The notes under the pieces are model-generated. The model made no database searches, had not been told where the DNA came from, and was given only the letters and a program-made list of their open reading frames with translations. From the IMG/VR virus record IMGVR_UViG_3300027884_000039, positions 1-64,000 of that record: 64,000 nt of DNA. The stretch is one strand, 5' to 3'. Positions 24,213-54,347 of this stretch are shown here, piece by piece. The translations under genes were made by a program, and so were the position numbers. Each line of letters opens with the position of its first letter. Within the stretch, counting starts at the first letter, position 1. The DNA comes from a virus (taxonomy: Duplodnaviria; Caudoviricetes).

Positions 24213-24293
24213 ATACGTTTAGTTTATTTACAGCCCCGTTACGAAGACCTCCAAAGGGAAGAGGCGGGGGCTGCTATCATAATTTTCCCGACT

Positions 24294-24686
24294 TTAGACG
24301 GGTAAACGCCGAAGTTGAAAAGACATGTATAGGCATTCACATAATAGAAATACGGCCCAATACGGAGGGGATTCATGAAACACATATTTTCCTATCAGGA
24401 ATAGCGCTACCATAAATCCCAATATCTGTAGCCACATATAAAACTCTCTATATACGCGCTTTCTCTTGGTATCTGTAATCGGTACCTGCGGTTGTTCTTC
24501 CACTGGCTCCCATATAATGAACCGAAAGCCATTGAATGTTCTCTTGGCACCATTGATTAGCACCACTACACATGGATAACCTTCGATGTCCTCATAAATC
24601 TCCGTCACCCCCTCGTGCCCTACTTCAAAATAGTCAATATCGTCGGGGTTTTCATTACTGTTAAAGATTCTAACATTGGTATTCAT
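24294..24686 (-). CDS. Hypothetical membrane protein (2 C-terminal TMs)
   Basis: Hydrophobic C-terminus. Confidence 0.65.
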   Translation of the reverse strand: MNTNVRIFNSNENPDDIDYFEVGHEGVTEIYEDIEGYPCVVVLINGAKRTFNGFRFIIWEPVEEQPQVPITDTKRKRVYREFYMWLQILGFMVALFLIGKYVFHESPPYWAVFLLCECLYMSFQLRRLPV

Positions 24687-51010: not shown

Positions 51011-51362
51011 TTTGCGTATTTCCAAAAACCTTATTATCTTGAACCCACGTTCCAACTCCCCAGGAGTATGTAGTTGGGGGGACTTTTTTTAATTAATGAA
51101 ATCCATTTCGAACAGAAAGCAAGAGTACAGTTACAATCAGCAACCAACAGTTCTTTTTAAGTTTTAGCAAGGACATTTTTTGATTGAGGATGAAGATTGA
51201 CTTTTGGCAGCAGTTTTGAATGAAGAGTAAACTATTAAAAGAGGGGCATTAAGTTCCTACTTGGCAGTAGCCAGGTATAGAAGGTTAGACTTGGTATTTA
51301 ACAGACATTATCGTCCCCTGTTTCTACAGGGGACTCTTTTAACCAAAAAAACTACCCGCTAT

Positions 51363-51878
51363 ATGACCAAAATTAATGGGCATCTTATTCGCGAAGTGCT
51401 CAAAGAAAAAATGTTGGAGTTGACGACCATCAATTCTACTTTTGAAGAAAGCTTATACAAATTTGAAAGTGAAGAAAAGCCATCCCCTGCCGCGTTGATG
51501 GCACGCATCATGGAACTGGAAACTGCGGTTGCCAAATTGCAAACTCTGCAATCGCAATATAACTTAACCGTAATGGTGCAGATTAATGAAGTAGCGATGC
51601 CCCTGGAAGAGGCGATCAAGCTGGTGGGGGGTGCTGGCCGCTCTTCGAAAAGATGGCGCGAAGCCGCCAAAGGAGAAAAGGTTGACCGGTATGAACGTCG
51701 TGCAAATAGGCAGCGAGAGAAAGACAAGGAATATACCGTCCCCACGATCTCAAAAGAAAAGGCGTTGGAATATGCCAAGAAGGCTGAACAATACGCAGGT
51801 AGTCTTCGCAAGGCCATCGCCTTAGGAATTTTAACAGATATTGAATTTGATGATAGTGTGGCGGCGCTCCTGGAGTAA
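51363..51878 (+). CDS. Coiled-coil protein, DIP1984/DUF6847-like
   Basis: ELE..VAKLQ..QSQYN..V....MPLEEAI pattern; start reassigned to ATG 51363 after an A-rich leader. Confidence 0.65.
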   Translation: MTKINGHLIREVLKEKMLELTTINSTFEESLYKFESEEKPSPAALMARIMELETAVAKLQTLQSQYNLTVMVQINEVAMPLEEAIKLVGGAGRSSKRWREAAKGEKVDRYERRANRQREKDKEYTVPTISKEKALEYAKKAEQYAGSLRKAIALGILTDIEFDDSVAALLE

Positions 51879-51895
51879 TCCCGGACACCAGTCAC

Positions 51896-52077
51896 TTGGT
51901 TGGTATGCGAACTCTACAAGCTACTACTTAACAGTAGTGACTTGCCCATCACTGGGATTATGCGCCTTCTTATCTAAATAGCCGTTATGTGTGTCTTGCT
52001 AAAGAACGGTTGATAACAAGCAGTAGTAACCACAAATGGGAGTTGGACGGTACTCGTTGCTATCAAATACCAACCAA
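51896..52077 (+). ncRNA. Structured RNA 1 (~180 nt), abutting tRNA-Met
   Basis: Perfect 11-bp closing stem ttggttggtat/ataccaaccaa plus nested gcga/tcgt, aactc/gagtt, actact/agtagt, ttatc/gataa and gccgtt/aacggt. Confidence 0.75.
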
Positions 52078-52080
52078 CAT

Positions 52081-52151
52081 CGCGAGGTCATCTAACGGTA
52101 GGATACCGGGCTCATAACCCGAGAATTCGGGTTCGATTCCCGACTTCGCAA
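52081..52151 (+). tRNA. tRNA-Met (CAT), initiator type
   Basis: C1:A72 mismatch; GGG/CCC in the anticodon stem; CTCATAA loop; TTCGATT T-loop. Confidence 0.9.
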
Positions 52152-52165
52152 CAAAACTATAACCA

Positions 52166-52954
52166 ATGAAATTAAATGTACTCCTTGCGCGAGCCGAACA
52201 TACTGGTGCGCAGTTCAAAATGATGATTCAAACATATGCACATACTTTCACGCATAAACAGGAGATATTCAGGGGCACTAAGAAGACTTATACGAAGGCA
52301 CCGGGTTCGGATGATTTCCCCAACATGAGCGGCAACGAAAAAGTGCAATCGTCGGTCGATGAATATTTGCAATGGTTTGAAGACACAGCCGACGAGTTTA
52401 TTACTCACCGTTTTAACATTGAGGCTACGAATGCCTCCGGGCCAAAAGCTGAGCTTATCGTCGGTGGGCAGAAATTTGGCAGTTATAGCACCTGCGAGCT
52501 AATGCGGCTCAATGATTTTTTAAATAGTCCTGAATTACTGAAGATGTATTCTATCCTGCCTGTGCGTAGTGATACAGAGAACTGGAAGGAGACTACCGAT
52601 CCGGAAGGCATAAAAAAGAAGTTGTGGGAAACCGACATCAAGAAACTACCCCATAACACGACGATTAAAGGTTGGATTATCCTCCCCGATCCGAATGTGG
52701 AGAAACTGAAGGCCGGTAGTCCGTATACACCTATTAAGGAGTCCAGTGATACGAAAGTGTATTTAGGGGAACAGACCATGCAGAAGTTTAGCGGGGAATG
52801 GAGTCATGCTGATCGGGCCAGTCTGCTGCGCAGGCTCACGATGCTAAAAGCGTCCGTGAAGGAAGCGCTAGTCACAGCCAATGAAACGCCAATGGTGGAA
52901 TCGGAATTAACGGCGAAAAAAATATTCGGGTATTTGCATCGTGGAACAATTTGA
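52166..52954 (+). CDS. DUF7873-like coiled-coil protein
   Basis: MKLNVLLA, FRG..KTY, ATNA...AELIVGG, ELMRL, LPVRS..E.W, KFSGEW...R..LL.RL..LK.SVKEAL..AN, IFGYL. Confidence 0.75.
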   Translation: MKLNVLLARAEHTGAQFKMMIQTYAHTFTHKQEIFRGTKKTYTKAPGSDDFPNMSGNEKVQSSVDEYLQWFEDTADEFITHRFNIEATNASGPKAELIVGGQKFGSYSTCELMRLNDFLNSPELLKMYSILPVRSDTENWKETTDPEGIKKKLWETDIKKLPHNTTIKGWIILPDPNVEKLKAGSPYTPIKESSDTKVYLGEQTMQKFSGEWSHADRASLLRRLTMLKASVKEALVTANETPMVESELTAKKIFGYLHRGTI

Positions 52955-53159
52955 CAAAGCCTTAGCTTTAGCCTTAGCTTAACACGATTCTAGTTAAATC
53001 AACTTTAGCTTCGCGTCAAAAGCCTCAGCTTTGTATGTTAGATCGTGGTGTCAAGCTGACCAGAGCGGAAGGGCACAGGTTCGAATCCTGTCTCGGCCTC
53101 CAGATCATTCGATCCGGAGGCCGAGTAGATACAGCGGCTAGATCATTCTGCATTTTAGC
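52951..53159 (+). ncRNA. Structured RNA 2: (C/T)TTAGC-repeat domain plus a YrlA-like circularly permuted tRNA mimic
   Basis: ttgaca/tgtcaa and cacgat/atcgtg stems; T arm ACAGG-TTCGAAT-CCTGT; acceptor CTCGGCCTCC/GGAGGCCGAG closed by a loop; D-like loop AGCGG; GCGGAA/TTCTGC anticodon-stem equivalent. Confidence 0.8.
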
Positions 53160-53161
53160 CT

Positions 53162-53246
53162 CAGTAAGCTTGAAAACATTGCGAACGTCACGCTGACTTG
53201 AAAATCAGCAGCAGACTGAAAATCTGCCCGTGATTTGGGATCACGT
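53162..53246 (+). repeat. Tandem anticodon-stem-loop-like hairpins
   Basis: GCTGA-CTTGAAAA-TCAGC, GCAGA-CTGAAAA-TCTGC, a weaker CTTGAAAA loop at 53169, and CGTGAT-TTGGG-ATCACG. Confidence 0.65.
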
Positions 53247-53250
53247 TTGG

Positions 53251-53281
53251 GGCCAGGCAGGATACGACCTGGCCCTTTTTT
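53251..53281 (+). terminator. Intrinsic terminator
   Basis: ggccagg/cctggcc stem plus T6. Confidence 0.75.
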
Positions 53282-53300
53282 ACGGTTGAAATGCACAATC

Positions 53301-54252: not shown

Positions 54253-54343
54253 GCCGAAGTGCCGGAATTGGTAGACGGCATCGATGATATCGATGGAGCT
54301 TATACTAGATTAGCTCGTGGGGGCTCGTATCCTCCCTTCGGCT
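54253..54343 (+). pseudogene. tRNA-Leu-like (class II) element with a collapsed anticodon loop
   Basis: GCCGAAG/CTTCGGC acceptor; GGAATTGGTAGAC D arm; long variable arm; ATCGA-TGATA-TCGAT (5-nt loop); T-loop CTCGTAT. Confidence 0.7.
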
Positions 54344-54347
54344 CAAT

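What the first reader, a model, noticed from the sequence alone, without database searches (positions are those of the whole stretch)
53162..53246. Tandem free anticodon stem-loops
GCAGA-CTGAAAA-TCTGC is a canonical tRNA-Phe(GAA) anticodon arm. Next to it is GCTGA-CTTGAAAA-TCAGC (8-nt, Ser-UGA-like loop), and a third CTTGAAAA loop lies upstream. They sit beside an anticodon-less tRNA mimic, as if the anticodon arms were supplied separately. Inference: decoy substrates for anticodon nucleases or modification enzymes.
Basis: partly seen in the sequence, partly recalled or inferred. Interest (0 to 1): 0.75.

Follow-up and report, generated by a model that had tools for sequence, protein, structure and literature searches.

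The report
Anticodon-like hairpins in phage tRNA-mimic RNA
The flagged hairpins are real and do look like tRNA anticodon arms, but they are not free-standing: they are a lineage-specific decoration in the tail of a roughly 330-base phage RNA built around an anticodon-less tRNA look-alike, and their "anticodons" change freely between relatives, so a specific decoy role is possible but unsupported.

Summary
Two of the three claimed elements are true hairpins: 53192-53209 (5-bp stem, 8-nt loop) and 53211-53227 (5-bp stem, 7-nt loop CUGAAAA). A third follows at 53230-53244. The upstream CTTGAAAA (53169-53176) is not a loop; CUUGA is one strand of a covarying long-range helix.

All lie inside one ~330-nt RNA (52950-53281, + strand). 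It starts at the stop codon of a DUF7873 gene, contains a YrlA-type permuted tRNA mimic, and ends in a terminator-like hairpin.

This scan has met the DUF7873-RNA pair before, in at least 86 other genomes. I found it in neither Rfam nor the papers searched.

The hairpin cluster occurs only in a clade of 12 related phage RNAs. About 25 more distant relatives that I checked (by script or by eye) go from the conserved box straight to the terminal hairpin.

Within the clade:
- The stems covary.
- Loop position 2 is always U and the last position always A.
- The central triplet varies (UGA, GAA, UAU, CAU, GUU and others).
- In three relatives the second hairpin is a T-arm copy.

The hairpins resemble real anticodon arms more than chance predicts.

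Best reading: tRNA-arm-derived accessory modules recognised by shape, not by anticodon. The decoy idea is neither shown nor excluded.

The parts
52166..52954 (+). DUF7873 gene (262 aa). Its TGA stop lies inside the first helix of the RNA.
   Evidence: Pfam PF25283, E 8e-29. 94 homologues found. AlphaFold model pLDDT 88 with no convincing fold match.
52950..53281 (+). Whole structured RNA unit that follows DUF7873.
   Evidence: MFE -123 kcal/mol, z = -4.1. Homologous RNA follows DUF7873 in L002-L004, L135, L172, L268-L273 and about 30 more distant loci. On the 12-sequence alignment A2, 96% of cells are paired against 82% when shuffled, and 26 pairs show double changes.
52958..52982 (+). Tract of six-base repeats (UUAGCN; UAR-NNU in distant relatives) inside helix P1 (52950-52955 with 53015-53020).
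   Evidence: Read. The P1 strands are invariant in the clade and differ in matching fashion in distant loci, by eye.
53051..53057 (+). 5' strand of the long-range helix 'Pb'. Its partner is 53167-53173.
   Evidence: 5 of 7 pairs have changes on both sides and 98.8% of cells are paired (helix 2).
53065..53151 (+). Permuted, anticodon-less tRNA mimic. It comprises an anticodon-stem analogue (53065-53070 with 53146-53151), T arm (53075-53091), closed acceptor hairpin (53092-53125, with UCCA at 53099-53102), UA, and D arm (53128-53144).
   Evidence: Weak Rfam YrlA match with the same arm order (19 bits, E 0.15). Acceptor stem covaries at 7 of 7 pairs and the anticodon-stem analogue at 5 of 6.
53167..53185 (+). 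Conserved box. AGCUUGA is the 3' strand of Pb, followed by AAACAUUGCGAA.
   Evidence: Alignment A2 columns 299-316. YUGAAWAC recurs in distant loci.
53192..53209 (+). Hairpin H1: GCUGA / CUUGAAAA / UCAGC. Anticodon-arm-like, with an 8-nt loop.
   Evidence: Present in all 12 clade members and 3 of 5 pairs are compensatory (helix 7). Loop U2 12/12, last A 12/12, middle positions variable. L269 carries the 7-nt version CUUGAAA.
53211..53227 (+). Hairpin H2: GCAGA / CUGAAAA / UCUGC. Anticodon-arm-like, triplet GAA.
   Evidence: Folds. Homologous GCAGU/ACUGC hairpins with other loops occur in L002, L270 and L273. 11-nt identity to positions 29-39 of a phage tRNA-Phe(GAA), and 3 mismatches to a tRNA-Ile arm.
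53230..53244 (+). Hairpin H3: GUGAU / UUGGG / AUCAC. Generic, not anticodon-like.
   Evidence: Counterparts are GUGGU/ACCAC (L002), GCCCG/CGGGU (L273) and GUGAUU-GCAA-AAUCAC (L270).
53249..53281 (+). Terminal hairpin (stem 53250-53257 with 53268-53275) with conserved loop CAGGAUACGA, followed by a U run (53276-53281). Terminator-like.
   Evidence: 100% paired, 4 of 8 pairs compensatory (helix 8). A loop motif AGGAUA(U/C) occurs family-wide. The U run is read. The consensus scan missed it because the loop is 10 nt.
54253..54344 (+). Leu-like class II tRNA-like gene, the probable RNA partner of the terminal loop.
   Evidence: ARAGORN calls it but Rfam's tRNA model does not at gathering score. 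A homologue occurs in every clade locus, with an anticodon loop of 3-8 nt. Its T arm UCGUAUCCU (54325-54333) complements the terminal loop 53259-53267.

Best explanation
The hairpins are internal modules of one RNA, the DUF7873-associated tRNA-mimic RNA. They are not independent anticodon arms.

They occupy a variable insertion site between the conserved UGAAAAC box and the conserved terminal hairpin. In the window's lineage this site has been filled with one to three tRNA-arm-sized hairpins:
- an anticodon-arm look-alike that is always present;
- a second hairpin that is anticodon-arm-like in some phages and a T-arm copy in others;
- sometimes a generic third hairpin.

Shown: selection keeps the stems, the U-turn-type first two loop bases and the closing A, but not the central triplet.

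Inferred: the modules are read by shape rather than by anticodon identity. They extend the tRNA mimicry of an anticodon-less tRNA body. They offer extra tRNA-arm surfaces to whatever binds this RNA (DUF7873 or host tRNA-binding proteins). They also space and stabilise the 3' tail, whose terminal loop pairs with a separate Leu-like tRNA-like RNA.

They do not decode, and nothing suggests that they are released.
For: - One unit: the RNA runs from the DUF7873 stop codon to a terminator-like hairpin, with all main helices covarying.
- H1 is conserved in position in 12/12 clade members. It has compensatory stem changes, invariant U2 and terminal A, and variable positions 3-6.
- H2 and H3 counterparts have compensating stems.
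- The second hairpin carries a true T loop, UUCGAAU, in L004, L268 and L272.
- YUNR loops are strongly enriched over background hairpins.
- The hairpins are nearer to real anticodon arms than control hairpins are.
- Distant relatives have only 30-40 nt between the box and the terminal loop and no such hairpins. Two carry unrelated extra hairpins at the same site (L015, L030). It therefore behaves as an expansion site.
- Complementarity between the terminal loop and the Leu-like tRNA-like T arm is 9 nt in 8/12 clade members. L003 shows one compensatory change, and at most 2 of 500 shuffles match in those eight.
- Precedent: Deinococcus Yrn1 was modelled with a 5-bp 'anticodon arm' bearing a 6-nt loop (PMC4201824).
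Against: - No transcript, processing, binding or modification data exist for this RNA. No RNA run was listed.
- Conservation of U2 and the terminal A rests on 12 related sequences that may represent few independent events.
- Shape-only recognition is an inference.
- No loop-loop partner was found for the three hairpin loops.
- A purely stabilising or neutral role would produce much the same pattern.
Confidence: 0.5

Rival explanations
1. Decoy reading. The hairpins are anticodon-stem-loop baits that titrate host anticodon nucleases or anticodon-loop modification enzymes. Their triplets change quickly because of an arms race with host defences.
For: - Anticodon-arm geometry and likeness to real arms.
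- The location is a phage tRNA-gene island beside a tRNA mimic, with a NinI-like metallophosphatase nearby. Relatives also carry dual-specificity phosphatase and macro-domain genes there.
- Triplets differ even between close relatives, as diversifying selection would predict.
- Isolated anticodon stem-loops are known substrates of several anticodon nucleases (my own knowledge, not tested here).
Against: - The cluster is absent from most of the RNA family.
- 4 of 12 distinct loops lack the purine at position 37, and the window's H1 has an 8-nt loop.
- The A36-A37-A38 context needed by MiaA is not conserved.
- No triplet matches the classic tRNA-Lys(UUU) target.
- One or two embedded hairpins per RNA would be a weak stoichiometric sink.
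- No nuclease or repair ligase was found: RtcB and TROVE are absent, and PADLOC gave no hits.
Confidence: 0.15
2. Relic or filler reading. The hairpins are fragments of tRNA genes, or of a tRNA-like module, captured at a permissive site in a tRNA-rich region. They persist only as stable hairpins that protect or space the 3' tail, with no recognition role of their own.
For: - The cluster is clade-specific, and its composition is mosaic between relatives. Different members combine a 4-bp hairpin ahead of H1, one or two anticodon-arm-like hairpins, a generic hairpin or a T-arm copy.
- T-arm copies lie next to the anticodon-like hairpin in three phages.
- Other lineages insert unrelated hairpins at the same site.
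- tRNA genes flank the RNA in most loci.
Against: - Stems are kept by compensatory changes, and loop ends are invariant across proteins only 52-58% identical. This argues for selection beyond mere presence.
- No remnant of acceptor or D stems forms a cloverleaf, and relaxed ARAGORN gives only inconsistent noise.
Confidence: 0.25
3. Kissing-loop reading. The YUNR heptaloops are fast-pairing recognition loops, as in antisense RNAs. They pair with another RNA (a tRNA anticodon loop, an mRNA or another loop of the same particle), and the variable triplet sets the target.
For: - 16/17 loops fit YUNR.
- The same RNA appears to use loop pairing elsewhere, between the terminal loop and the Leu-like tRNA-like T arm.
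- The CUCGUAA loops of L135, L269 and L271 could pair 5 bp with their own terminal loop.
- In L270 the loops of the second and third hairpins are mutually complementary.
Against: - No complement longer than chance was found for the loops, either in the own RNA or in the Leu-like tRNA-like RNA (shuffle p of 0.4-1 for nearly all loops, with a few isolated values of 0.02-0.08).
- No covarying partner was identified.
- Host RNAs could not be searched because the host is unknown.
Confidence: 0.1

Closest known systems
YrlA-class bacterial and phage Y RNAs bound by Ro60/Rsr (Rfam RF02553; Chen et al. 2014, PMC4201824)
   Same: - A permuted tRNA-like module in the same order: stem, T arm, loop-closed acceptor stem, UA, D arm, stem (alignment).
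- The 7-bp acceptor stem recalls the Mycobacterium smegmatis form, which RNase P cleaves.
- Deinococcus Yrn1 was modelled with an anticodon-arm-like hairpin.
   Different: - It scores 19 bits against a gathering score of 69.
- The phage has no TROVE/Ro60 gene; the partner gene is DUF7873.
- The RNA is about three times longer, with a six-base-repeat domain, a conserved box and a conserved terminal loop.
- The anticodon-like hairpins lie outside the tRNA module, in the 3' tail.
DUF7873-associated tRNA-mimic RNA
   Same: - It directly follows a DUF7873 gene.
- It contains the permuted tRNA mimic, six-base repeats and a terminal hairpin.
- A second tRNA-like RNA lies nearby.
   Different: The window's clade adds one to three tRNA-arm-like hairpins before the terminal hairpin. 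It ends the RNA with a U run, and the Leu-like tRNA-like gene is separated from it. In the window that gene lies about 970 nt downstream.
Genuine tRNA anticodon arms (positions 27-43)
   Same: - 5-bp stem and 7-nt loop.
- Pyrimidine-U at the loop start and A at the loop end.
- H2 differs at 3 of 17 positions from a phage tRNA-Ile arm and shares 11 nt with a phage tRNA-Phe(GAA) arm.
- From memory, unverified: it differs by one base from the E. coli tRNA-Tyr arm.
   Different: - They are not part of a cloverleaf.
- H1 of the window has 8 loop bases.
- Position 37 is C or U in several relatives.
- The triplet is not conserved.
Two-piece (permuted) tmRNA
   Same: Gene order is T arm, 3' acceptor strand (here with UCCA), loop, 5' acceptor strand. 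A long helix stands in place of the anticodon arm.
   Different: - There is no G3:U70 pair; the window has C3:G70.
- The CCA is present in only 3 of 12 relatives.
- There is no conserved tag reading frame.
- ARAGORN and the Rfam tmRNA models find nothing.

Membership tests
YrlA / Y RNA-like (RF02553) | tRNA-like module in the order T arm, closed acceptor stem, UA, D arm, enclosed by a stem | tested here: met
   cmscan alignment. Covariation of the acceptor stem, D arm and enclosing stem.
YrlA / Y RNA-like (RF02553) | Score at or above Rfam's gathering threshold (69 bits) | tested here: not met
   19.0 bits, E 0.15-1.2. No YrlA hit at gathering score in 20 related loci.
YrlA / Y RNA-like (RF02553) | Encoded next to, and bound by, a Ro60/Rsr (TROVE) protein | tested here: not met
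   No PF05731 match in the complete 79-kb phage record, with controls positive. Binding itself cannot be tested here.
YrlA / Y RNA-like (RF02553) | Ro-binding helix and the GNCGAA(N)G loop motif | not tested
   I saw no exact GNCGAA by eye in 52950-53281; UGCGAA at 53180-53185 does not fit. No systematic test was made.
tRNA (RF00005) / free anticodon arm of a split tRNA | The hairpin is the anticodon arm of a complete or split cloverleaf | tested here: not met
   ARAGORN and Rfam find no tRNA at 53150-53290. Relaxed ARAGORN gives only inconsistent calls.
Anticodon stem-loop mimic (shape definition) | 5-bp stem, 7-nt loop, U33, purine 37 | tested here: inconclusive
   H2 meets all four criteria. 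H1 of the window has an 8-nt loop. Across the clade U33 holds in 17/17 hairpins, but 4 of 12 distinct loops lack purine 37.
Anticodon stem-loop mimic (functional definition) | Conserved anticodon triplet, or action by an anticodon nuclease or modification enzyme | tested here: not met
   The triplet is not conserved. Enzyme action cannot be tested with these tools.
Two-piece tmRNA | G3:U70 alanine identity pair and a tag reading frame | tested here: not met
   The acceptor stem is G1-C72, G2-C71, C3-G70. There is no tmRNA call. The candidate frames are not conserved, because the region is a covarying helix.
DUF7873-associated tRNA-mimic RNA (scan-defined) | Lies directly downstream of a DUF7873 gene and carries the permuted tRNA mimic plus a terminal hairpin with an AGGAUA-type loop | tested here: met
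Intrinsic terminator (for the flagged hairpins themselves) | GC-rich hairpin immediately followed by a U run on the transcribed strand | tested here: not met
   On the + strand only the terminal hairpin 53250-53275 is followed by a U run. The minus-strand terminator-like call at 53228-53210 has no upstream minus-strand gene.

The most novel reading that the evidence does not exclude
The hairpins form a fast-evolving 'anticodon cassette'. Each phage lineage displays the anticodon arms that its host's tRNA-cutting or tRNA-modifying defences attack, mounted on a DUF7873 particle built from an anticodon-less tRNA mimic plus a docked Leu-like tRNA-like RNA. The particle would then be a modular tRNA decoy or repair platform that works without Ro60.
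Probability: 0.12. Interest if true: 0.8.

Novelty: new variant of a known kind. Interest (0 to 1): 0.45.

Why it matters
Phages carry tRNA genes and tRNA mimics partly to survive host attacks on the translation apparatus. Known tRNA-mimic RNAs (Y RNAs, tmRNA) lack anticodon arms.

Here a lineage of an apparently undescribed, widespread RNA family adds anticodon-arm-shaped hairpins next to its anticodon-less tRNA body. The shape is conserved and the triplets are free. If these arms are recognised by host or phage proteins, they give a simple handle for finding what the DUF7873 particle binds: swap or delete 17-base modules.

If they are only filler, the result still maps a permissive expansion site and corrects the reading of the CTTGAAAA box as a helix strand. 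The complementarity between the terminal loop and a separate Leu-like tRNA-like RNA, seen in passing, suggests that the particle assembles from two RNAs.

Tried and rejected
- **Rfam.** At gathering and permissive thresholds, on the window and on 20 related loci, only tRNAs, one tmRNA and one twister ribozyme were found. YrlA scored 19 bits.
- **Two-piece tmRNA.** Rejected: no G3:U70 pair, no conserved tag frame, no ARAGORN call. The ALALALA-like frame at 52960-52982 comes from the UUAGCN repeats and is not kept in relatives.
- **attP or tRNA 3' fragment.** Rejected, because the 5' acceptor strand, D arm and enclosing stems covary as RNA.
- **Second cloverleaf formed by the three hairpins.** A closing stem appears only in L270. 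Relaxed ARAGORN gave noise.
- **Loop-loop partners for the hairpin loops.** Nothing beyond chance in the own RNA or in the Leu-like tRNA-like RNA.
- **Close relatives by DNA or protein.** Nothing in the phage collection or in IMG/VR. Relatives came from the protein search and pattern scans. Most pattern hits in metagenome and genome contigs were chance matches.
- **DUF7873 fold searches.** Foldseek against PDB and BFVD gave no match at E <= 0.001. The best VIA Z was 6.0, against helical proteins only. Weak Cas7 rows (E about 0.02, TM about 0.1) are not evidence.
- **Other protein libraries.** PADLOC, NCBIfam and PHROGs gave nothing for DUF7873. PADLOC and NCBIfam also gave nothing for its neighbours; PHROGs named only the NinI-like phosphatase and the integrase.
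- **RNA evidence.** No RNA holder was listed; the only run is the soil metagenome that probably supplied the contig.
- **Bacterial examples.** A search of 401 genomes of one phylum gave one DUF7873 hit, at a contig end, which was of no use.
- **Burroughs and Aravind 2016.** The paper could not be read.
I redid it with hairpins extracted by program.

Full report
**What is at the coordinates**

The + strand reads as follows.
- AGCUUGAAAAC at 53167-53177.
- Hairpin H1, GCUGA-CUUGAAAA-UCAGC, at 53192-53209.
- Hairpin H2, GCAGA-CUGAAAA-UCUGC, at 53211-53227.
- Hairpin H3, GUGAU-UUGGG-AUCAC, at 53230-53244.
- A GC-rich hairpin at 53250-53275 with loop CAGGAUACGA, followed by six U.

Single-sequence folding predicts all four hairpins. 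The whole 346-nt stretch folds well below its shuffles (-123 kcal/mol, z = -4.1).

**The hairpins are not free**

The window is a complete 79-kb IMG/VR phage record. The stretch lies directly after a 262-aa gene that matches Pfam DUF7873 (E 8e-29).

Upstream of the hairpins lies a tRNA-like module in permuted order:
- T arm, 53075-53091;
- 3' acceptor strand plus UCCA;
- a small capping hairpin;
- 5' acceptor strand;
- UA;
- D arm, 53128-53144.

A stem (53065-53070 with 53146-53151) encloses this module where a tRNA would have its anticodon stem. Rfam aligns it to YrlA with the same arm order, but at only 19 bits against a gathering score of 69. The phage has neither a TROVE/Ro60 gene nor RtcB.

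**Relatives**

The protein search gave 94 DUF7873 homologues. From these, from IMG/VR and from pattern scans I collected two sets.
- Eleven loci from the window's own clade, with proteins 49-58% identical where known: L002-L004, L135, L172 and L268-L273.
- About 30 more distant loci (L005-L038), a jumbo-phage group (L274-L310) and one 523-kb contig (L312).

Nearly all carry the same RNA after the gene:
- a helix that starts at the stop codon;
- a tract of six-base repeats;
- the permuted tRNA mimic;
- a conserved YUGAAWAC box;
- a terminal hairpin whose loop keeps an AGGAUA-type motif.

On the 12-sequence clade alignment A2, 96% of cells of my hand-drawn structure pair, against 82% in shuffles and 34-47% when partners are slid. 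In all, 26 of 47 pairs change on both sides. The acceptor stem covaries at 7 of 7 pairs.

**The 'third loop' is a helix strand**

AGCUUGA (53167-53173) pairs with UCAAGCU (53051-53057). This helix encloses the tRNA mimic and covaries at 5 of 7 pairs (helix 2). One example is UCAGGUAG/CUAUCUGA in L002. The CTTGAAAA at 53169-53176 is therefore half helix and half conserved junction, not an anticodon-like loop.

**Conservation of the hairpins**

H1 is present at the same place in all 12 clade members. It has 98% pairing and compensatory changes at 3 of 5 pairs (helix 7). Its loop has these properties:
- 7 nt in ten members and 8 nt in the window and L135;
- U at position 2 in 12/12;
- A at the last position in 12/12;
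- C at position 1 in 10/12;
- variable central positions, giving CUUGAAA, CUUAUAA, AUGUUAA, CUUAACA, CUCAUUA, CUGAAAA, UUUGUAA, CUAAACA and CUGAACA.

The second hairpin is more mosaic:
- CUGAAAA in the window;
- CUCGUAA or CUUGUAA in four members;
- UUUGAAU in two;
- a GCAA-capped hairpin in one;
- a true T-arm copy with loop UUCGAAU in L004, L268 and L272;
- absent in L003.

Stems of matching types differ by compensating changes, for example GUGAU/AUCAC against GUGGU/ACCAC against GCCCG/CGGGU.

In the more distant relatives the box is followed after 30-40 nt by the terminal loop, with no hairpin between. L015 and L030 have unrelated extra hairpins at that spot. The cluster is therefore a clade-specific filling of a permissive site.

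**Are they anticodon-arm-like beyond chance?**

Yes.
- Of 17 distinct 7-nt-loop hairpins at this site, 17 have U at position 2 and 16 fit YUNR. Background is 33% and 8.4% among 750 hairpins with 5-bp stems and 7-nt loops in the same 64-kb window.
- Their nearest real anticodon arm, among 99 arms from tRNAs predicted in these loci, is on average 4.8 mismatches away. Background hairpins that already have YU....A loops average 6.7, and all background hairpins 7.8 (Mann-Whitney p = 2e-5).
- H2 shares 11 contiguous bases with positions 29-39 of a phage tRNA-Phe(GAA). It is 3 mismatches from a phage tRNA-Ile arm.

Against faithful mimicry:
- 4 of 12 distinct loops have C or U where tRNAs have purine 37;
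- the window's H1 has one loop base too many;
- the triplet is not conserved.

The sequences are related, so these counts overstate the number of independent events.

**What they do**

Stems and loop ends are kept while the triplet is free. This is what an element recognised by shape (a U-turn heptaloop on a 5-bp stem) would show.

I looked for RNA partners of the loops and found none beyond chance. No protein clue emerged. The DUF7873 model is confident (pLDDT 88) but matches no known fold convincingly, and the defence and annotation libraries are silent.

My best reading, at about 50%, has three parts:
- the hairpins are tRNA-arm-derived accessory modules of the particle;
- they extend its tRNA mimicry;
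- they space and stabilise the 3' tail.

The decoy reading (about 15%) fits the geometry and the tRNA-island context. It is weakened by the cluster's absence from most of the family, by the imperfect position 37 and by the lack of any conserved triplet. A neutral relic or filler reading (about 25%) and a kissing-loop reading (about 10%) remain open.

**A related observation**

Every clade locus also has a 92-98-nt Leu-like class II tRNA-like gene; in the window it lies at 54253-54344. Its anticodon loop ranges from 3 to 8 nt between phages.
- Its T arm contains UCGUAUCCU, the exact complement of the terminal-loop AGGAUACGA. This holds in 8 of 12 members.
- L003 shows a compensatory change (GGACACG with CGUGUCC).
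- At most 2 of 500 shuffles do as well in the eight members with the full 9-nt match.
- Six of 30 distant loci have a complement of 8 nt or more just downstream, up to 14 nt in L021.
- A second six-base complement joins the 5'-domain loop to the variable-arm loop. It changes on both sides in the window (UCUAGU with ACUAGA, against CCUAGA with UCUAGG elsewhere), but it is not significant on its own.

This suggests that the RNA docks a second tRNA-like RNA through its terminal loop. In distant relatives that RNA follows immediately and may be co-transcribed.

**Comparison with what is known**

The closest described class is YrlA with Ro60 (PMC4201824). The arm order is the same. The M. smegmatis form with a 7-bp acceptor stem is cut by RNase P and gains CCA. 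Deinococcus Yrn1 was modelled with a 5-bp anticodon-like arm.

Membership fails on the Rfam score and on Ro60 linkage. The UCCA in the window is not conserved: the full CCA is present in 3 of 12 members, and UCC in 9 of 12, where it pairs with GGA. tmRNA is excluded.

Earlier notes of this scan describe the DUF7873-RNA pair in at least 86 genomes and likewise found it in no library or paper. I found no note of the anticodon-like hairpin cluster or of the terminal-loop pairing.

**Verdict**

- The feature is a new variant within the tRNA-mimic (Y-RNA-like) kind.
- Interest is moderate.

Noticed in passing
window 53259-53267 and 54325-54333: The terminal-hairpin loop AGGAUACGA is the exact complement of UCGUAUCCU in the T arm of the Leu-like tRNA-like gene, which lies about 1 kb downstream. 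This holds in 8 of 12 clade members, L003 shows one compensatory change, and some distant loci have longer complements (14 nt in L021, 11 nt in L022).
   Followed up: partly
window 54253-54344; homologues in L002-L004, L135, L172, L268-L273: A conserved 92-98-nt class II (Leu-like) tRNA-like gene. Its anticodon loop varies from 3 to 8 nt and in sequence between phages. Its T loop is non-canonical (UCGUAU instead of UUCGAAU). ARAGORN calls it tRNA-Ile(GAU) in the window, but Rfam's tRNA model does not reach threshold.
   Followed up: partly
window 52989-52994 and 54304-54309: The 5'-domain loop UCUAGU complements ACUAGA in the variable-arm loop of the Leu-like tRNA-like gene. Other clade members have CCUAGA with UCUAGG, so both flanking bases change together. 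Six bases built around a CUAG palindrome are not significant alone.
   Followed up: partly
window 52958-52982, and again at 53004-53011, 53021-53031 and 53154-53163: Six-base periodic repeats (UUAGCN; UAR-NNU in distant relatives), four to six in a row. They look like a binding track for an oligomeric protein. The weak Foldseek rows to Cas7 proteins for DUF7873 are not significant.
   Followed up: no
window 52950-52955: The DUF7873 stop codon (TGA in UUUGAC) lies inside the 5' strand of the RNA's first helix. The hexamer is invariant in all 12 clade members. The RNA is therefore probably made as the 3' end of the DUF7873 transcript.
   Followed up: no
L135, L269, L271 (clade); L009, L014, L015, L019, L020, L027, L037, L274-L310: The loop that closes the acceptor stem of the tRNA mimic tolerates insertions of 40 to more than 150 nt, some of them well structured. 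U73 after the 7-bp stem is nearly invariant.
   Followed up: no
window 24215-24309 (- strand): A type-P3 twister ribozyme match above Rfam's gathering score (53 bits, E 1e-8).
   Followed up: no
window 51261-52077: An upstream 205-aa gene with no family match is followed by about 180 nt without a convincing reading frame, ending just before tRNA-Met (52081-52152).
   Followed up: no
L011, L013/L028 downstream of the terminal hairpin: The long tRNA-like genes that follow the RNA in these distant phages have anticodon loops reading UUUUAGN (triplet UUA) and very long variable regions that contain the complement of the terminal loop. Seen by eye only.
   Followed up: no
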